From sequence record PX104380.1: 64,000 nt of DNA; one strand, 5' to 3'. A program made the translations under genes and the position numbers. Each line of letters starts with the position of its first letter. The first letter of the stretch is position 1. Under the pieces are notes generated by a model that saw only the letters and a list, made by a program, of their open reading frames with translations, was not told the origin of the DNA and ran no database searches. This DNA is from a phage. Positions 10,100 through 60,290 of the stretch are shown here, piece after piece.

Positions 10100-11687
<1,588 letters not shown>

Positions 11688-11694
11688 AATAAAA

Positions 11695-11714
11695 TGGGCC
11701 TTGCGGCCCACTCC
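11695..11714 (-). promoter_or_regulatory. hairpin between Shine-Dalgarno and start codon of denA
   Basis: Minus sense UAA-GGAG-UGGGCC-GCAA-GGCCCA-UUUUAUU-AUG: GNRA-loop hairpin separating GGAG from AUG. Confidence 0.45.
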
Positions 11715-12893
11715 TTAAAAATATTTTTTAAAACTCATCATAACTTTATCATCAACATCATTATCAATCTGTGCAACAAGATAAGATGACAGTTCTACTT
11801 CTTGCGGCGCGGATTGAACATTATCAGAATTAAGGTATTCACGAATCCAAGGATATGGATGTTTAACCGGAGCATCGGTAATTGGACATGGAAGACCGCA
11901 CTGTTTCATACGAGATACAGTTAAGTAATCAATAAAGCTCCACATGCTATTTGTATTTAATCCAGGAACATCGCCATCTTTAAATAAATGAACTGCCCAA
12001 TCTTTTTCTTGGCGGTTAACTTCCATGAAAATATCAACTGCTTCTTGTTCACACTCTTGAGCAATTTTAACCCATTCATCACCATCAGTGCCAAGCTGAA
12101 GTTGACGAATAATATATTGAGTGCCTTTAAGGTGAAGTTGTTCATCACGTGCAATGAACTTCATAATCTTGGCATTACCTTCCATGATTTCCATGTTCTT
12201 ATGGAAGTTAAAGGTACATGCGAAAGATACATAAAAACGAATAGCTTCAAGGGCATTAATAACATGCAGACACAGATAAAGCGACTTCATTAGCTCACGC
12301 TTCCAATATGTCTCATGCTCAATAGCATCTTCAATAACGTCTTCGTCTGCATTAATTTCTTTTTGGTATTCGATATCAGCTTTAGCGTTTTCCCAATAAC
12401 GAGTTTTAATCAGAACGTCATCATAATAACGTCCAATGGATTCAGCGCGTTTCATAATAGCTTCATCTAATACAATCTCATCAAATACCTTTGACGGATC
12501 AGTATAAAGATTTCGCATAATATGAGTGTATGAACGACTGTGAATAGTTTCACTAAAAGTCCATGTAGCAACCCATGTATCAAGACTTGGGTCTGAAATT
12601 AATGACATAAGTACAGCAGATGGCGCACGACCCTGAATGCTATCCAAAAGTGATTGATACTTCAGGTTGTTAGTAAAAATATTTTGCTGGTACTGAGGAA
12701 GCTTATTAAACTGTGCAGCATCCATCATTAAGTTTACTTCTTCAGGACGCCAAAAAAATGATAAAGATTTCTCAATAAGTTCTTCAAATACTCTATGTCG
12801 TTGAATATCATATCGAGCTAAACCCAATCCAGAACCAAAAAACATCGGCTCAGTCAAAATATTAACAGGGGATGTATTAAAAACTGTACTCAT
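11715..12893 (-). CDS. nrdB: ribonucleotide reductase small subunit, 392 aa, uninterrupted
   Basis: Full-length contiguous ORF with RNR R2-like features; position between denA and mobE. Confidence 0.9.
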   Translation of the reverse strand: MSTVFNTSPVNILTEPMFFGSGLGLARYDIQRHRVFEELIEKSLSFFWRPEEVNLMMDAAQFNKLPQYQQNIFTNNLKYQSLLDSIQGRAPSAVLMSLISDPSLDTWVATWTFSETIHSRSYTHIMRNLYTDPSKVFDEIVLDEAIMKRAESIGRYYDDVLIKTRYWENAKADIEYQKEINADEDVIEDAIEHETYWKRELMKSLYLCLHVINALEAIRFYVSFACTFNFHKNMEIMEGNAKIMKFIARDEQLHLKGTQYIIRQLQLGTDGDEWVKIAQECEQEAVDIFMEVNRQEKDWAVHLFKDGDVPGLNTNSMWSFIDYLTVSRMKQCGLPCPITDAPVKHPYPWIREYLNSDNVQSAPQEVELSSYLVAQIDNDVDDKVMMSFKKYF

Positions 12894-13531
12894 TTAGAAT
12901 CCTTAAATTTACATTTATCATAATGCCATCTTAAAGCATTGCCTTTATTAACTTTCTTGCCACAATGCGGACAAGGCGGATACTCTGTACCTTGCTTAGT
13001 TCTCAAAGAAATCAAATCACGGGTTTCTTTAGTATGAGGAACATCTCTTGTCGGAGAAATTGTACCATACATCGGATTAAGCACGCCGACTTTAGCAGCA
13101 GCTATATTCTTTTTAGCTTCTTCGGTTTTAGGTTTTCTCATGCGAGCTAAATGCTCTTTGGTAAATTTCCTTCCTTTAAGAGCTCTACTTATCTTTTCTC
13201 TGGTTTCCATAGAAACTTCACGTCCTATAGCAGCTTCAGATAAACGTCGTCTACCTAATTCGTACAGTTGAGAAGAAATTTTATATGAGCGATTTTTACC
13301 AGTCAAGCACATTAAACCAAAAGCTTTCTTTAATCCTGGGGTGTCATATATTTTACATAAAAGCCAATGAGCTATAAAATGCTCTCTACCTGTTAATTCA
13401 ACTAAATTTTCTTTATCATCAGAACCTCCCATGCATTTAGGGACTATATGATGTGTCTCTTTATATTCGGATAAAGGTTCCCGAGCCTGAGCTCGGGAAA
13501 TTAGGTCATTATAGATTTTTTGATAATTCAT
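12890..13531 (-). CDS. mobE: HNH homing-endonuclease-like protein, 213 aa, between nrdA and nrdB
   Basis: HNH motif ETHHIVPKCMGGSDDKENLVELTGREHFIAHWLL; position matches recalled T4 mobE. Confidence 0.7.
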   Translation of the reverse strand: MNYQKIYNDLISRAQAREPLSEYKETHHIVPKCMGGSDDKENLVELTGREHFIAHWLLCKIYDTPGLKKAFGLMCLTGKNRSYKISSQLYELGRRRLSEAAIGREVSMETREKISRALKGRKFTKEHLARMRKPKTEEAKKNIAAAKVGVLNPMYGTISPTRDVPHTKETRDLISLRTKQGTEYPPCPHCGKKVNKGNALRWHYDKCKFKDSK

Positions 13532-16352: not shown

Positions 16353-17213
16353 TTATACTGCCATTTTTCCTTTAATTGGCGGGTGAGATACATAGTCGTT
16401 AAGAACAAAATTATGCGGCTTTGCGAATTGACTCAACCAAAATACCTGCGATTCTGTATCCCATTCATCAAATTCATCTGGAAATTTTAATTGTAATTCG
16501 CATAAATCCATAGGTTCACGACGCAAAATTTCTTTACATTGTTCTACGTGATTCATATAGATATGAGTATTACCACCAGAAAATATCAAATCTCCCGGAA
16601 TAAGATTACACATCTTAGCTACAATATGAACTAACGTAGCATATGATGCAATATTAAATGGAAGACCGAGGAAAACATCTACCGAACGTTGATACCACTG
16701 AAGGTCAAGGTATCCATTACGAACATTAAATTGATAGAACATATGACAAGGTGGTAATGCCATCTGCTTGAGTTCAGCTGGATTCCATGCTGAAACAATT
16801 TGACGCCTATCATTTGGCAGTTTTTTAATACGATCAATAACTTCTATAATTTGGTCTACACCACCAAAATCACGCCACTGTTTTCCATAAATTGGACCAA
16901 GTTCACCGCTATGGTATCCTAAATCTTTTGCTTGATTTTCGTAATTTTCATCCCAAACTGTTTTGCCTTGGATTAACGAATCATGTTGAATTAATCGCAA
17001 ATCATTGACATTTGTGCTTCCCGATAAAAACCATATTAACTCAGCAATGCAAGCTTTCCAGGCGAGCTTTTTAGTTGTTACTGCAGGAAAACCTTTAGTT
17101 AAATCCCAGCGTAATTTAGTACCGAACAAAGCAATTGTTCCTGTGCCTGTTCGGTCATCGGTTTCATAACCATTTTCAAAAATGTCTTTAATTAAATCTT
17201 GGTATTGTTTCAT
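16353..17213 (-). CDS. td: thymidylate synthase, 286 aa, uninterrupted
   Basis: Contiguous 286-aa ORF with ThyA features (catalytic Cys region PPCHMFYQF). Confidence 0.95.
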   Translation of the reverse strand: MKQYQDLIKDIFENGYETDDRTGTGTIALFGTKLRWDLTKGFPAVTTKKLAWKACIAELIWFLSGSTNVNDLRLIQHDSLIQGKTVWDENYENQAKDLGYHSGELGPIYGKQWRDFGGVDQIIEVIDRIKKLPNDRRQIVSAWNPAELKQMALPPCHMFYQFNVRNGYLDLQWYQRSVDVFLGLPFNIASYATLVHIVAKMCNLIPGDLIFSGGNTHIYMNHVEQCKEILRREPMDLCELQLKFPDEFDEWDTESQVFWLSQFAKPHNFVLNDYVSHPPIKGKMAV

Positions 17214-17228
17214 TTAACACCTATATAA

Positions 17229-17576
17229 TCAATACGGTTTAGCATCAAATTTTCTCTCAATTTCAGGCGTGAAATATAATTCTTTACCGCGTTTGGAAAA
17301 GCGACCAATAATATGATAATTATTCTCATCAAACGTGATATTACCAATATCCATAGCTTTCAACCAAATATCGATATTTCTATCCAGCTTTATGTCAAAA
17401 TTCCAATACGGAGAACTATTACCGAAAATACTGCAAGCGGATTCAGTGAAACAACTGCTATAAATCTTATCTTTAGGAACTACTAATTGATAGACACCTT
17501 TAATAAACTGAGGACCCTGCCACTTTGGCTGTTTCTCGTCTTTTTCTAATAGAATAGGGTAATAATTAAAATTCAT
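17229..17576 (-). CDS. hypothetical protein, 115 aa, between frd and td
   Basis: ORF track; ATG verified; no recognised motif. Confidence 0.5.
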   Translation of the reverse strand: MNFNYYPILLEKDEKQPKWQGPQFIKGVYQLVVPKDKIYSSCFTESACSIFGNSSPYWNFDIKLDRNIDIWLKAMDIGNITFDENNYHIIGRFSKRGKELYFTPEIERKFDAKPY

Positions 17577-17595: not shown

Positions 17596-18422
<827 letters not shown>

Positions 18423-18433
18423 ATTATCTCCTA

Positions 18434-18766
18434 TTAAAAAGGATCAGGAACATATCCGCTAGCTTTAATCATTTTAATTAACGTTAACATTCCTTTGTTA
18501 ACTGCTCGTGAGATTTCATCAAAAACTTCATCACTAAAAAGTTCTAACACGCCCTTCTGAACTTTTAATTTACAGCCAACAATTTCTTCATCGCCTATAG
18601 TAAATTCATTACCACCAATTCCACCGAAAAACTTAATTACACCAGTTAACTGTCTTCCACGAGAATATGGGTCGTGTGATAAAGTAATATGAGTCACCCC
18701 GAGTACAGTTTTAAATTGGCAGCGAATATTTACTTGTGAAATTCCAGTTACATGAATGTCAGACAT
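18434..18766 (-). CDS. hypothetical protein, 110 aa
   Basis: ORF track; ATG verified. Confidence 0.5.
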   Translation of the reverse strand: MSDIHVTGISQVNIRCQFKTVLGVTHITLSHDPYSRGRQLTGVIKFFGGIGGNEFTIGDEEIVGCKLKVQKGVLELFSDEVFDEISRAVNKGMLTLIKMIKASGYVPDPF

Positions 18767-19861: not shown

Positions 19862-20770
19862 TTAAAGGTCATTCAAAAGGTCATCTAGGTCCGTGTCATC
19901 AGCACTAGATGAACTGCCAGAGCTTGAGCTCATAAAATCATCTTCAGTTTTTGTATTGAAGTCATCAACATTGAATGCATCCAAATCATCAGCAACTTTA
20001 TCAGCTTTCTTAGCAGCAGTTGCAGCAGCACCGCCCATCACAGCAGTTCCCATAACTTGACCGAATTTAGTGCTCAGTTCTTCAAACGATTTGAATTTAT
20101 CTTTAGAAGTCATTTCAGAAAGGTCAACCATTTGTTCGAACAGTTCTTTCTGGAAAGATTCATCGTCAATGTTTGGAATCGCAGATTGATTCAGGAATTT
20201 AGATTCGTCGTAGTTACTAAAACCAGAAACTTGTTTAACTTTCAGTACAAAGTTAGCACCTTCCCACGGACAAGTTACATCAACCGGAGTTTCACCCATT
20301 TCAACATCAACTGCAATCATTGCATTGATTTTATCCCAGATTTTCTTACCGAAACGGTATTTAAATACTTTACCTTCGTTTTCTGGAGTAGCTGGGTCTT
20401 TTACAACAAGAATGTTAGCCCAGTAAGAAGTTTTGCGTTTAACAAGACTGTACTCTTTATTGTCAGTGTTGTACAGATCATTTTTACTGATGTATTGACA
20501 TACTGGGCAAGAATCGTAATCACCGTGGGTAGATGAACATGTTTCAATATACCATTTACCATTTTTCTTGAAACCGTGATTTACAAGAATTGCGAATGGT
20601 GCTTGTTCATCATTTTTAGACGGAAGAAAACGAATTACTGCTTGACCGTTACCCGCATTATCGAGTTTCAGTTTCCACTCGCCTTTATCTTCAGAAGAAA
20701 AACCACCTTTATTGCCATTCAGTTTAGCCATTTGTGCAGCGAGTTCAGCAGTAGATTTACGTTTAAACAT
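19862..20770 (-). CDS. 32: single-stranded DNA-binding protein gp32, 302 aa
   Basis: 302 aa; zinc-binding Cys/His region and acidic Ser/Asp-rich C-terminal tail; matches recalled T4 gp32. Confidence 0.95.
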
Positions 20771-20824
20771 TTTATTTCCTTTTTAACTTAATTTAATTAA
20801 CAGTTGGTGCTATGACACTTTACC

Positions 20825-21454
20825 TCATAGCTGGCATAATTTGCAATACTCTGGGTCTTCGAGAGGTATCCAACCTGAGTTGAAATACTTTACCATCGAT
20901 TTAGCAGTTGTATCAGTTATATTTATATTACCTTTAACTCTTCGCCATCCAGGAGTTTTACCGTACAGATTAGAAGATAATAACACATAATTCTCGTAAG
21001 CAATATGAGATAATTTCCAAGACTCTATATTAGCTCGTGATGTTTTCCAAGGTCTAAAATCGTCACGGTTCATATAATTAGCCAATCTCATATGCTCTCT
21101 AACTTCCGGGTCTTTGGCTGGATGAGTTTCACCACTCACACCAAATCCGCCGCCAGCATATACCAGATTAAAATAGTCTGGATTATCTCTGGCATTTACT
21201 TCAAGTTGGTATTTTCGTTCTGCTTCAATAACATCCAAGCCATCATCAATTTGAATTATTTTAACGCTCGGTTTTTGAAGCATTACCGCATTCAAAAATC
21301 TTTTTTGTTTACATGAACTCCAATATTCCTTTCCGGAAGAGTCATATATTATTCCGTTCTCAAATGAGCAATTTAATTTACTACCGATATAGTAGTATGG
21401 CGGAGTCTTATTTTTGACACGGTCTTCAAATGTAAACCAATATACTATATTCAT
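20825..21454 (-). CDS. GIY-YIG homing-endonuclease-like protein (Seg-like), 209 aa, between genes 32 and 59
   Basis: N-terminal IVYWFTF...YYYIGSK...ERKYQLEVNARDNPDYFN resembles GIY-YIG catalytic core; occupies the recalled T4 segG position. Confidence 0.5.
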   Translation of the reverse strand: MNIVYWFTFEDRVKNKTPPYYYIGSKLNCSFENGIIYDSSGKEYWSSCKQKRFLNAVMLQKPSVKIIQIDDGLDVIEAERKYQLEVNARDNPDYFNLVYAGGGFGVSGETHPAKDPEVREHMRLANYMNRDDFRPWKTSRANIESWKLSHIAYENYVLLSSNLYGKTPGWRRVKGNINITDTTAKSMVKYFNSGWIPLEDPEYCKLCQL

Positions 21455-21455
21455 A

Positions 21456-22109
21456 TCAATACTTACAAGATTTCACAGTTTCAATGAAAACATTTTTAGC
21501 TTTCTGTGAATCAATATTTAAAATTTTTCTATAAGCCTTTAACTTTATAGAATAATTATTCCAGACTAAATTATCAGTCTGTTCATCATGTTTATCAATT
21601 ATATTTAAAAATGAATCAAGCAAAATAAACGTTTCAAACGAAATTATGTTCGACTGAAGCAGTTTAAAAATATAACTTGATTGAACTTTTGGATTATATT
21701 CAAAGATTTCTTTAAAAGCAGAAACTTCAACTTTCTTACTAAAATAATAAATGTTGCGAATATCTTCTTCAAACTTAAATTTAATTTGCTTTAAGCGTCC
21801 GATATATTCACGATAAAACACAAGTGCATCAGCGTCAGAGATATCACCAATCCAAGCATCTTGGTTAGCAACCAAATTACTTATAAAGATTAAAGCAAGT
21901 TCCTTTAATTTATATTTTTCTGATAACTTCTGGAAAAAATACTTATCCCTTCGCTTTTGATAAGCGGCATCAGACACCCGCATGCACCAATTATACTTAA
22001 TAACATCATACTTTCCATTCATATGTTGTTTTATCATTAAGTATAATTTATAAACTGATTTACCATCAATGTATCTTTCACCACCAGCAGGCATGCGGAG
22101 TTTAATCAT
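21456..22109 (-). CDS. 59: gp59 helicase loader, 217 aa
   Basis: 217 aa; position between gene 32 block and gene 33. Confidence 0.85.
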   Translation of the reverse strand: MIKLRMPAGGERYIDGKSVYKLYLMIKQHMNGKYDVIKYNWCMRVSDAAYQKRRDKYFFQKLSEKYKLKELALIFISNLVANQDAWIGDISDADALVFYREYIGRLKQIKFKFEEDIRNIYYFSKKVEVSAFKEIFEYNPKVQSSYIFKLLQSNIISFETFILLDSFLNIIDKHDEQTDNLVWNNYSIKLKAYRKILNIDSQKAKNVFIETVKSCKY

Positions 22110-53130: not shown

Positions 53131-53733
53131 TTATAGATTAAATCCTTCAAAATCAAGAGTATAGATAGTGTATGTTGAATACTTTTTATACTCATATCTA
53201 TCTGCAATTCTAAATACACTTCCAGCTGGTATCATTACTTCTTGTTCATCTGAAACTAATTCCATATTACGATAACGATGGCTATCCGGAAACTTAAAGT
53301 TTGGATTGTATTCTTTACAGCGTAGAGCTTTTATAGCATACTCCTGGAAATTGAATACCATAGGAGCTTTGAATTCAAAAATAACCTGTGTGCTATACTC
53401 TAAACCAGAAGCAAAATGTAGAGCTATATTTTTATCATATGAAGCTGATACGACTTTATCAAATGTAATAATATCAATTCCTTGATTTAACACCTGCTTA
53501 GTCTCAGCTGGAACACCTCTCCAAAGAGGTTTATCGTTTGGTTCCAAACGAGATTTGATTATTTCATTTAACCAAGTATGGTCATCTGGCTTATTAGTAA
53601 TACAATGAATTAAAAGTTCAATTTCAGATAAATTAAACCCTTCAGAAAGTAATTCTTCACGAATAGAAGCACGCACCGATGCATCCATTGATTTTATTTT
53701 AAAATCTTTTAGTTGCATTACTGAGTATTTCAT
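53131..53733 (-). CDS. modA: ADP-ribosyltransferase ModA, 200 aa
   Basis: 200 aa; tandem with 207-aa paralog; ATG verified. Confidence 0.8.
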   Translation of the reverse strand: MKYSVMQLKDFKIKSMDASVRASIREELLSEGFNLSEIELLIHCITNKPDDHTWLNEIIKSRLEPNDKPLWRGVPAETKQVLNQGIDIITFDKVVSASYDKNIALHFASGLEYSTQVIFEFKAPMVFNFQEYAIKALRCKEYNPNFKFPDSHRYRNMELVSDEQEVMIPAGSVFRIADRYEYKKYSTYTIYTLDFEGFNL

Positions 53734-54353
53734 TCAACTACCTCAATATCATAAACTTTAAATGTTCCAAACGAATCGTGTAATTTTTCTTTTGAAATAG
53801 AAGTTATTTTATACTTTCCAATTGGAATCATCCATTCTTGTTCACGCACGATCATCATTAAGTTATCAGTACGCTCTGAATCTAATCCATCAGTATCTTC
53901 ATATGTATACTTAAACTCAGTATTAGGAGAAGAAAGTATAATATCGCTGATATGGTCAGAGTAATTAAAAGCTTTATCAGTTTTTAAGCGGAATATTATT
54001 TCAGTGAAATATTCAGCATAAGAAAAAGAACACGCTGTGTGTAAACTAGTAGTAAATGAATCTACCCTATTCGTTGAAAACACATCTCCAACCTGTAAAT
54101 TTTCTATTATTTCTTTTGTTGTTTTTGATATACCACGATATAACTGATAAGGCGATTTAGTTAAATGCTTTTTAATGATTTTATTCAACTGTCTGTGAAG
54201 AGCTTCATTCTTTTTGGCTTCCATACATTGCCAAAGAATTGATTGTTCAAAATCAGTAAACTTTTCACAAACCTTTTTATACATATCATATTGAAAATCA
54301 ACGCTTTCAGCTTTTATAGATAACTGTTCAACATCTGCAAGATTAATAATCAT
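53730..54353 (-). CDS. modB: ADP-ribosyltransferase ModB, 207 aa
   Basis: 207 aa, upstream of modA, shared architecture. Confidence 0.8.
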   Translation of the reverse strand: MIINLADVEQLSIKAESVDFQYDMYKKVCEKFTDFEQSILWQCMEAKKNEALHRQLNKIIKKHLTKSPYQLYRGISKTTKEIIENLQVGDVFSTNRVDSFTTSLHTACSFSYAEYFTEIIFRLKTDKAFNYSDHISDIILSSPNTEFKYTYEDTDGLDSERTDNLMMIVREQEWMIPIGKYKITSISKEKLHDSFGTFKVYDIEVVE

Positions 54354-59642: not shown

Positions 59643-60290
59643 TTAACCTCTATTCATAAAAGCATTAAAAATTTGATCGTCAATAGAAACTTTTACTTTA
59701 GGCTGTTCTTCAAACGGTAATTCATATCCACATATTACAATTTTGTGATCGATACCAAAATACACAGAAGCAATATGATTAATATTATTTTCAGTGAAAT
59801 CTAAATCAACATCAACATCTTTTTGACTAACGCTCAAAGGATAATTAATACGAATAATTCGATTATCTTTAACAAAGATTCCACCGACATACTCTGTGTT
59901 GCGTTTAAAGTTTACACGTTTCCTAAATGAAAAATATTCAGGTTCTTTATGAGCCCGACTCATAGGACACAATGAGTAGCTAGAATAAGAGATGTCAAAT
60001 CCTACACCTTCAATATGAATATGAGCCAACGTGTCATGATTAAACCAATTATAATCATATGCCAAATCCATTATATTGTAATATGTGAAAGGCACCGGAT
60101 TAACATCATGTGTTGTACCTTTAAAATCTGCCCAGGCAACGATTTCGTTATCTTTAACAATTACAAAAATTGTGCCAATAAGATATCCACGGTTATTTTC
60201 ATCAGGCGTTATAGTATAACATTGTGCATCAGGAAATTTACCGTATTTAAACGGTGGATTTTTGTGCATATAATAAATCATATTATTCAC
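59643..60290 (-). CDS. hypothetical protein, 215 aa
   Basis: ORF track. Confidence 0.5.
   Translation of the reverse strand: MNNMIYYMHKNPPFKYGKFPDAQCYTITPDENNRGYLIGTIFVIVKDNEIVAWADFKGTTHDVNPVPFTYYNIMDLAYDYNWFNHDTLAHIHIEGVGFDISYSSYSLCPMSRAHKEPEYFSFRKRVNFKRNTEYVGGIFVKDNRIIRINYPLSVSQKDVDVDLDFTENNINHIASVYFGIDHKIVICGYELPFEEQPKVKVSIDDQIFNAFMNRG

What the first reader, a model, noticed from the sequence alone, without database searches (positions are those of the whole stretch)
20825..21454. GIY-YIG endonuclease-like ORF between genes 32 and 59
The N-terminus (IVYWFTF...YYYIGSK...ERKYQLEVNARDNPDYFN) resembles a GIY-YIG catalytic core, followed by ~100 aa that could be a DNA-binding domain. Its position corresponds to the T4 segG locus. 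Such genes mediate marker exclusion during mixed infection.
Basis: partly seen in the sequence, partly recalled or inferred. Interest (0 to 1): 0.4.

Follow-up and report, generated by a model that had tools for sequence, protein, structure and literature searches.

The report
Phage T4 SegG homing endonuclease gene

Summary
The 209-aa ORF at 20825-21454 (minus strand) is real. It lies between gp59 (helicase loader) and gp32 (ssDNA-binding protein). It is 98.2% (nt) and 99% (aa) identical to T4 SegG; the differences are L57V, D72G, loss of one Leu in a Leu triplet, and E206K in T4 numbering. About 141 of 511 related Tequatrovirus genomes carry the gene and the rest have an empty 59-32 spacer, as expected for a mobile homing endonuclease gene.

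It also fails for T4 SegG and SegF themselves. A 130-member family profile links the N-terminal 101 residues to SegA/D/E (hhalign 94.5%, E 7e-8), and SegA is a Pfam GIY-YIG member. Tyr5, Tyr22-Ile-Gly24, Glu79 and Asn96 are essentially invariant. No counterpart of the canonical Arg was found.

The gene also carries the motifs of a middle and a late promoter for gene 32, and its stop codon lies inside the gene 32 operator pseudoknot. The mechanism, a double-strand break in gene 32 of segG-less phages followed by gene conversion and marker exclusion, comes from the T4 literature and was not tested here.

Verdict: already known, low interest.

The parts
20825..21454 (-). segG coding sequence (209 aa plus stop), orthologue of T4 SegG (210 aa)
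   Evidence: ORF list. 98.2% nt and 99% aa identity to T4 SegG. phrog_7504 at 1.6e-131.
21131..21454 (-). N-terminal domain (aa 1-108): divergent Seg-type GIY-YIG nuclease domain. Conserved residues are Y5, Y22-I23-G24-S25-K26, Y44, S47, E79 and N96.
   Evidence: hhalign of the 130-sequence family profile against SegA/D/E gives probability 94.5%, E 7.4e-8, over residues 1-102; against SegA/D/E/F/I-TevI it gives 93.8%, E 1.8e-7. The AF2 model has the element order b1 3-8, b2 21-26, a1 51-59, b3 63-69, a2 75-85, with pLDDT 90-96 in this part.
20828..21130 (-). C-terminal domain (aa 109-209): all-helical and family-specific. Presumed to be the sequence-specific DNA-binding domain.
   Evidence: AF2 predicts helices 116-125, 143-146, 149-162, 170-174, 181-192 and 201-208. 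There are weak PHROG matches of aa 124-205 to other 'homing endonuclease' families. Relatives keep the N-domain but swap the C-terminus for NUMOD3 or zinc-finger modules. The DNA-binding role is inferred, not shown.
21258..21282 (-). MotA-box type T4 middle-promoter motif (TGCTTCA, 12 nt, TAAAAT) inside segG, reading towards gene 32
   Evidence: The pattern search finds 11 matches in the window against 1.96 expected. The review PMC2988022 states that the middle and late promoters of gene 32 lie within segG. Activity was not tested here.
20920..20927 (-). T4 late-promoter box TATAAATA inside the 3' part of segG, about 150 nt upstream of the gene 32 ATG
   Evidence: The motif count in the window is not above chance on its own, but the site is identical in T4 and matches the literature statement. 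segG-less RB27 has its own TATAAATA in the short 59-32 spacer that segG replaces.
20806..20834 (-). Sequence forming the gene 32 translational-operator pseudoknot (CCAGCUAUGAGGUAAAGUGUCAUAGCACC). The segG stop codon TGA (20825-20827) lies in its 5' stem arm.
   Evidence: Sequence read directly. The overlap of the pseudoknot with ORF 32.1/segG is described in PMC535899. Homology with segG-less RB27 resumes at CCAGCTATGAGG.
19862..20770 (-). Gene 32 (gp32, 302 aa). In segG-less phages this is the published target of SegG and the marker that hitch-hikes with it. Here it carries the segG-linked alleles at nt 52-57 (20714-20719) and nt 230-231 (20540-20541).
   Evidence: PHROG match. Allele comparison of 12 segG+ and 12 segG- genomes. 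The target gene is named in the literature.
21456..22109 (-). Gene 59 (helicase loader), the upstream flank. Its TGA stop is 1 nt from the segG ATG, and there is no recognisable Shine-Dalgarno sequence in between.
   Evidence: PHROG match. Junction sequence ...TGTAAGTATTGATATGAAT.

Best explanation
The ORF is an intact segG gene, a free-standing homing endonuclease of the Seg branch of the GIY-YIG superfamily, inserted between genes 59 and 32 of a T4-like (Tequatrovirus) phage. By orthology with T4 SegG it would act as follows. It is made in small amounts from read-through transcripts of gene 59. Its C-terminal helical domain binds a specific site in gene 32 of a co-infecting relative that lacks segG. 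Its N-terminal nuclease domain makes a double-strand break there. The break is resected and repaired by phage recombination using the segG-bearing genome as template. This replaces the rival's gene 32 alleles (marker exclusion) and sometimes copies segG itself. The element is hard to lose because it carries gene 32's middle and late promoters and part of gene 32's translational operator. Shown here: identity, synteny, presence/absence polymorphism, conserved catalytic-type residues, purifying selection, and the embedded motifs. Taken from the literature and inferred for this copy: cleavage, target and gene conversion.
For: It is 99% aa and 98.2% nt identical to T4 SegG, with the same flanking genes. 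Of 511 related genomes, 141 carry the full gene; the others listed match in two pieces that span about 515 bp of the record, i.e. an empty site, and the RB27 empty site was read directly. The closest overall relative, AugustSocin, carries a frameshifted copy, the decay stage expected for a homing endonuclease gene. The family profile links to the bona fide GIY-YIG proteins SegA/D/E at E 7.4e-8. Foldseek finds Seg-like, GIY-YIG and NUMOD3 viral proteins. In relatives the same N-domain is fused to NUMOD3 modules in 86 of 130 cases. Y5, Y22, G24, E79 and N96 are invariant or nearly so, and none of the four window-specific changes touches them. Synonymous changes outnumber non-synonymous ones 14 to 4. 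Gene 32 alleles at nt 52-57 and 230-231 track segG presence in 12 versus 12 genomes, and the window has the segG-linked type. Literature: SegG cleaves T2 gene 32 and causes its exclusion, gene 32 promoters are embedded in segG, and the pseudoknot overlaps segG.
Against: There is no direct match to Pfam GIY-YIG, NCBIfam or any PDB sequence. Foldseek against the PDB finds no nuclease fold. The family profile does not align to I-TevI directly. No conserved equivalent of the canonical catalytic Arg was found, since R52 is variable. This exact protein, with D72G and the one-Leu deletion, is not in the 15-billion-sequence collection, so its activity has never been observed. The primary paper (Liu et al. 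2003) could not be read.
Confidence: 0.9

Rival explanations
1. The ORF is intact but the enzyme is inactive or weakened. On this view the DNA is retained because it carries gene 32's promoters and part of its operator, so it now serves as a regulatory cassette and not as a working endonuclease.
For: The window allele has two changes not seen in the other six intact alleles examined here, D72G and loss of one Leu at 158-160, and the exact protein is absent from public collections. Its closest genome-wide relative has a frameshifted segG yet keeps the whole segment, which shows the DNA can persist without the protein. The embedded promoter motifs give a reason for retention.
Against: The reading frame is complete and every invariant family residue is kept. 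Position 72 is naturally variable (D, N, S, T). The deleted Leu lies where homologues differ in length. There is strong purifying selection across the intact alleles. Gene 32 carries the segG-linked alleles at nt 52-57, which the frameshifted AugustSocin lineage has lost.
Confidence: 0.07
2. The protein is not a GIY-YIG nuclease at all. On this view the IVY...YIG resemblance is superficial and the N-domain is a different fold or function.
For: No Pfam, NCBIfam or PDB sequence hit. No PDB Foldseek hit at E<1. No conserved Arg at the expected place. The small-family profile gives only 26% hhalign probability.
Against: The deeper profile reaches 94-95% probability and E about 1e-7 against SegA/D/E, aligning GIY, YIG, Glu and Asn in register. 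SegA passes Pfam PF01541. Eight relatives hit Pfam SegE_GIY-YIG. BFVD structural hits include GIY-YIG-named proteins. SegF, a proven enzyme, is equally invisible to Pfam. The literature classifies SegG as GIY-YIG.
Confidence: 0.03

Closest known systems
Phage T4 SegG (gene 32.1; AAD42455.1), free-standing GIY-YIG homing endonuclease
   Same: Same locus between genes 59 and 32, same orientation, 99% aa identity over the full length. Same embedded late and middle promoter motifs and the same overlap with the gene 32 pseudoknot.
   Different: 209 instead of 210 aa (one Leu of LLL158-160 missing), plus L57V, D72G and E206K in T4 numbering (K also in RB3). The host genome is not T4: it has no td or nrdB intron, its gp32 is 302 aa, and its best overall match is about 96% identity to phage AugustSocin.
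T4 SegA, SegD, SegE (Seg-type GIY-YIG homing endonucleases; Pfam PF01541 / PF19835)
   Same: Same modular plan, with an N-terminal nuclease domain of about 100 aa followed by a DNA-binding C-terminus. The aligned motifs are the (G)IY strand, YIG strand, Y-x-G/S-S motif, Glu and Asn. All are free-standing genes between conserved phage genes.
   Different: Sequence identity in the aligned 86 columns is only about 20%. SegG has an extra hairpin (aa 30-37) and a short helix (10-15) between the motifs. Lys26 stands where SegA/D/E have His. Pfam does not recognise it. The C-terminal domain shows no significant similarity.
I-TevI (td intron GIY-YIG endonuclease; structures 1MK0/1LN0, recalled from memory)
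   Same: The superfamily and the general way of working are presumed the same: a monomeric two-domain enzyme in which a catalytic domain is tethered to a DNA-binding domain.
   Different: No direct sequence or profile match was found and no PDB Foldseek hit. The I-TevI Arg27 helix has no counterpart. I-TevI is intron-encoded and cuts 23-25 bp from its insertion site, whereas free-standing Seg enzymes cut hundreds of bp away.

Membership tests
T4 SegG orthologous group | Full-length high identity to T4 SegG | tested here: met
   99% aa, 98.2% nt identity.
T4 SegG orthologous group | Located between genes 59 and 32, same strand | tested here: met
T4 SegG orthologous group | Site-specific double-strand cleavage in gene 32 of segG-less phage (T2) | not testable with these tools
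   Known for T4 SegG from the literature. Indirect support comes from gene 32 alleles at nt 52-57 and 230-231 co-varying with segG presence.
GIY-YIG nuclease superfamily | Significant match to the Pfam GIY-YIG model PF01541 | tested here: not met
   No hit at E<=10, and none of 130 relatives hits it at E<=0.01. Controls: I-TevI 2e-18, SegA 3e-9, but T4 SegF and T4 SegG also give no hit. The model is therefore not sensitive enough to define membership for this branch.
GIY-YIG nuclease superfamily | Homology to accepted members detectable by profile-profile comparison | tested here: met
   hhalign probability 94.5%, E 7.4e-8 against SegA/D/E. 93.8%, E 1.8e-7 against SegA/D/E/F/I-TevI. SegA/D/E against I-TevI gives E 4.6e-5.
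GIY-YIG nuclease superfamily | The two motif tyrosines (GIY ... YIG) | tested here: met
   I3-V4-Y5 and Y22-I23-G24 are present. Y5 is found in 127 of 127 relatives, Y22 in 129 of 130, G24 in 130 of 130. The spacing is 16 residues, against about 10 in I-TevI.
GIY-YIG nuclease superfamily | Catalytic Glu and structural or metal-site Asn | tested here: met
   E79 in 129 of 130 and N96 in 129 of 130 relatives, aligned with the invariant Glu and Asn of SegA/D/E.
GIY-YIG nuclease superfamily | Conserved catalytic Arg in helix 1 (I-TevI Arg27) | tested here: inconclusive
   R52 at the start of helix 51-59 is not conserved. The conserved basic residues are K26 (128 of 130) and R12 (105 of 116), at other positions. 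In the SegA/D/E alignment the I-TevI Arg27 segment is also an insertion.
GIY-YIG nuclease superfamily | Three-stranded sheet with flanking helices (b1-b2-a1-b3-a2 fold) | tested here: inconclusive
GIY-YIG nuclease superfamily | Cleavage leaving 2-nt 3' overhangs | not testable with these tools
   Biochemical property; not examined.
Free-standing homing endonuclease gene (mobile element) | Presence/absence polymorphism at one locus among close relatives, with decayed copies | tested here: met
   141 of 511 genomes carry the full gene, and the other genomes listed have an empty site. AugustSocin carries a 2-bp frameshifted copy.

The most novel reading that the evidence does not exclude
The SegG clade (514 cluster representatives at E<=1e-3) may be a GIY-YIG branch that current domain models do not see. 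It may have replaced the canonical helix-1 Arg with another basic residue, Lys26 after the YIG strand or Arg12 in the GIY-YIG loop. Separately, the natural-population data may locate SegG immunity or target determinants in gene 32 at nt 52-57 and/or nt 230-231, the latter next to the zinc-ligand Cys codon. The window phage would then be a self-immune carrier of a new but active allele.
Probability: 0.3. Interest if true: 0.3.

Novelty: already known. Interest (0 to 1): 0.12.

Why it matters
It matters little beyond correct annotation. segG is a textbook example of intronless homing and of T2/T4 marker exclusion. Three modest points are useful. (2) The gene is tied into gene 32 regulation through embedded promoters and the operator overlap, which explains why it persists even when frameshifted in a close relative. 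(3) Comparison of 24 genomes shows that gene 32 alleles co-vary with segG, a natural footprint of co-conversion or of target immunity.

Tried and rejected
- Direct domain and sequence searches gave nothing for a nuclease fold. These were Pfam, NCBIfam and PDB phmmer with the single protein, a PDB hmmsearch with the 29-sequence profile, and hhalign of the family against I-TevI alone.
- Foldseek of the AF2 model against the PDB gave no hit below E=1; the best were weak helix-turn-helix or sigma-factor-like matches to the C-domain.
- hhalign of the C-terminal domain against the SegA, D, E, F and I-TevI C-termini was not significant. Only a short NUMOD3-like stretch (DPEVREHMRLANYM) lined up weakly.
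- An Rfam scan of the whole window found no family, so neither the gene 32 operator nor any group I intron is detected.
- The sigma-70 promoter scan of the region was at chance level.
- A sliding-window comparison of the window with T4 and with AugustSocin across 17.8-24.6 kb showed no distinct ancestry tract around segG.
- An IMG/VR scan for gene 32 alleles returned only 3 loci.
- The primary paper (Liu et al. 2003) and Sandegren et al. 2005 are not held. The mapped cleavage site could therefore not be compared. My recollection that cleavage and insertion sites are 332 bp apart is from memory only.

Full report
OBSERVATION. Downstream on the same strand is a 302-aa ORF (19862..20770) that matches the PHROG family for single-strand DNA-binding protein (6e-117). 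Upstream is a 217-aa ORF (21456..22109) that matches the DNA helicase loader family (2.9e-87). The ORF therefore does sit between genes 32 and 59 of a T4-like phage.

IDENTITY. Megablast of 20771-21500 against 50,697 phage records finds 496 records. The best are 98.2-98.6% identical over the full length, and phage T4 itself (AF158101.6 147855-148587) is among them. In that record the ORF is annotated 'SegG homing endonuclease; site-specific DNA endonuclease; GIY-YIG family', between gp32 and gp59. The protein alignment with T4 and RB3 SegG shows 99% identity. The differences from T4 are L57V, D72G, loss of one Leu from LLL158-160 (a TTA-repeat slip) and E206K in T4 numbering, the last shared with RB3. 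This exact protein is not in the 15-billion-sequence collection. It is therefore a new allele of a known gene.

The host genome is not T4. Over 24 kb the best match is about 96% identity to phage AugustSocin. td (16353..17213, 286 aa) and nrdB (11715..12893) are uninterrupted ORFs, and Rfam finds no group I intron.

IS IT A GIY-YIG ENZYME? Pfam-A returns no family at E<=10. NCBIfam returns none. PDB sequences return none, either with the single protein or with a 29-sequence profile. None of the 28 close homologues has a precomputed Pfam domain.

Controls show that this failure is a sensitivity problem. I-TevI (2e-18) and SegA (3e-9) pass PF01541, and SegD and SegE hit PF19835 'SegE_GIY-YIG'. 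T4 SegF and T4 SegG, both experimentally proven endonucleases, return nothing.

An exhaustive HMM search with the family profile finds 514 cluster representatives at E<=1e-3. They share the N-terminal ~105 residues and have varied C-termini. Of 130 of these relatives, 86 carry NUMOD3 motifs, 8 hit SegE_GIY-YIG (best 3.3e-4) and none hits PF01541.

The profile-profile comparison depends on profile depth. The 28-sequence profile against five T4 GIY-YIG proteins gives only 26% probability. The 130-sequence profile gives 93.8%, E 1.8e-7. Against SegA/D/E alone it gives 94.5%, E 7.4e-8 over SegG residues 1-102. That alignment puts I3-V4-Y5 on the GIY strand, Y22-I23-G24 on the YIG strand, E43-Y44-W45-S46-S47 on the Seg motif G-Y-M-G-S-G, E79 on the invariant Glu and N96 on the invariant Asn. 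SegA/D/E in turn align to I-TevI at E 4.6e-5.

The AlphaFold model (mean pLDDT 87) has strand 3-8, strand 21-26, helix 51-59, strand 63-69 and helix 75-85. This is the order expected for the fold, with an added short helix (10-15) and hairpin (30-37). Foldseek against the PDB found nothing below E=1. Foldseek against predicted viral structures gave 23 hits at E<=1e-3. These include proteins named SegG homing endonuclease, 'GIY-YIG domain-containing protein' (9.6e-5), Seg-like homing endonuclease and NUMOD3 proteins. A further hit at 1.4e-3 is T4 P04523, which I believe is the old gene 69 product that includes SegF.

In the 130 relatives the conserved residues are Y5 (127/127), Y22 (129), G24 (130), K26 (128), Y44 (129), S47 (128), E79 (129) and N96 (129). 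R12 is present in 105 of 116. R52, at the start of helix 1 where the canonical Arg would be expected, is not conserved.

My reading is that SegG belongs to the Seg branch of the GIY-YIG superfamily. This rests on an intermediate-sequence link and on the conserved Tyr, Tyr, Glu and Asn. The equivalent of the catalytic Arg remains unresolved.

SECOND DOMAIN. Residues about 109-209 are predicted to be all-helical. They match only other phage 'homing endonuclease' PHROGs weakly. They show no significant similarity to the C-termini of SegA, D, E, F or I-TevI. Close relatives keep the N-domain but carry a different C-terminus with NUMOD3-like repeats and a Cys/His cluster. This domain swapping is what is expected if the C-terminus is the specificity (DNA-binding) module. 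That role is inferred, not shown.

MOBILE-ELEMENT BEHAVIOUR. With an 1101-bp query, 141 of 511 matching genomes contain the whole gene. The others listed match in two pieces spanning about 515 bp. In segG-less RB27, genes 59 and 32 are separated by 99 bp. That spacer contains its own TATAAATA and a T2-type pseudoknot sequence, and homology with the window resumes at CCAGCTATGAGG. The last codons and the stop of segG therefore lie in resident operator sequence, as Borjac-Natour et al. noted (PMC535899).

The window's closest overall relative, AugustSocin, has the same segment with a 2-bp TA insertion in the YYYIGS codons. This is a frameshifted pseudogene. Across seven intact alleles, variable codons are 14 synonymous and 4 non-synonymous (P 2.4e-7 against the neutral expectation). 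The protein is therefore under selection where the frame is intact.

LINKS TO GENE 32. Inside segG there is a MotA-box middle-promoter motif at 21258-21282 (minus strand); the motif class occurs 11 times in the window against 1.96 expected. There is also a late-promoter box TATAAATA at 20920-20927 (minus strand). The review by Edgell et al. states that the middle and late promoters of gene 32 lie within segG, that segG lacks a promoter-containing cassette of its own, and that RNase E processes the transcript (PMC2988022). The segG ATG follows the gene 59 stop by one base, with no evident Shine-Dalgarno sequence. This fits low, coupled expression.

I compared gene 32 in 12 genomes with intact segG (including the window) and 12 without. 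Nt 53 is A in 12/12 and C in 12/12 respectively. Nt 52 and 57 nearly follow the same split. Nt 230 is C in 12/12 against A in 10/12. A GGT codon at nt 64-66 is absent from 10 of 12 segG+ genomes and present in all segG- genomes.

The window has the segG-linked bases at nt 52-57 and 230-231 but keeps the GGT, as does Pu-Krd-SF4. AugustSocin, with its dead segG, has the segG-less type at nt 52-57. These genomes are not phylogenetically independent, and physical linkage alone could explain nt 52-57. Nt 230-231 lie next to a zinc-ligand Cys codon. If the insertion point is counted from the gene 59 stop, they lie near the distance I recall from Liu et al. 2003 (332 bp between insertion and cleavage sites). 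I could not verify that recollection.

MECHANISM. The T4 literature states that SegG is a site-specific endonuclease that cleaves T2 gene 32. In T4 x T2 co-infections it starts a gene conversion that excludes T2 gene 32 markers. Free-standing endonucleases cut hundreds of bp from their own gene, so they are inherited only when resection reaches the flanking homology. For this copy I infer the same mechanism, because it is 99% identical and keeps all conserved residues.

RIVALS. One rival is an inactive relic kept for its promoters. It is possible because of the two unique changes and the decayed relative. The intact frame, the tolerant positions of the changes and the selection signal argue against it. 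A second rival is a non-GIY-YIG fold. The profile-profile result and the structural neighbours argue against it.

VERDICT. The feature is already known (the T4 segG orthologue) and the interest is low. The main practical lesson is that direct Pfam, NCBIfam and PDB sequence searches do not recognise this branch, so a negative HMM result should not be used to reject such calls.

Noticed in passing
L007:3447-4132 (Escherichia phage AugustSocin MZ501052.1, 52446-53131): AugustSocin is the window's closest overall relative. It carries segG with a 2-bp TA insertion inside the YYYIGS codons. This breaks the frame, and the record annotates only a 153-aa remnant as 'putative homing endonuclease'. Its gene 32 has the segG-less alleles at nt 52-57.
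   Followed up: yes
window 19862-20770 (gene 32), especially 20705-20719 and 20540-20541: Gene 32 is a mosaic. It has the bases typical of segG-bearing phages at nt 52-57 and 230-231, but keeps the extra GGT codon (nt 64-66) that is otherwise typical of segG-less phages. As a result gp32 is 302 aa, against 301 aa in T4.
   Followed up: partly
window 16353-17213 and 11715-12893: td (286 aa) and nrdB (392 aa) are single uninterrupted ORFs, and Rfam finds no group I intron anywhere in the window. This phage therefore lacks the T4 td and nrdB introns and their endonucleases I-TevI and I-TevIII.
   Followed up: partly
window 12890-13531 (-): A 213-aa ORF lies between nrdA and nrdB. It has Pfam HNH (8e-5) and NUMOD3 (7e-9) matches and hits PHROG 655 'homing endonuclease' at 1.7e-66. 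It is a second free-standing homing endonuclease gene, at the position of T4 mobE.
   Followed up: partly
window 17229-17576 (-): A 115-aa ORF lies between td and frd. It has no Pfam match and hits PHROG 1928 (unknown function). AugustSocin has a CDS annotated 'putative homing endonuclease' at what appears to be the corresponding position just downstream of frd; I did not align the two.
   Followed up: no
window 18200-18750: This segment, which includes the 110-aa ORF 18434-18766, has no counterpart in T4 between frd and gene 32 but is nearly identical in AugustSocin.
   Followed up: no
window 59643-60290 (-): A 215-aa ORF matches Pfam AdfA (Anti-DarT factor A) at 1.2e-135. By position it should be the T4 gene 61.2 homologue; that assignment rests on the T4 map, not on an alignment.
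   Followed up: no
window 11277-11711 (-): A 144-aa ORF passes Pfam GIY-YIG (PF01541, 5.4e-6). It is probably endonuclease II (DenA). The window therefore holds a second GIY-YIG protein, one that Pfam does recognise, unlike SegG.
   Followed up: no
window 53131-53733 and 53730-54353 (-): Two tandem ORFs of about 200 aa both match PHROG 832 'RNA polymerase ADP-ribosylase'. They look like a modA/modB-type pair.
   Followed up: no
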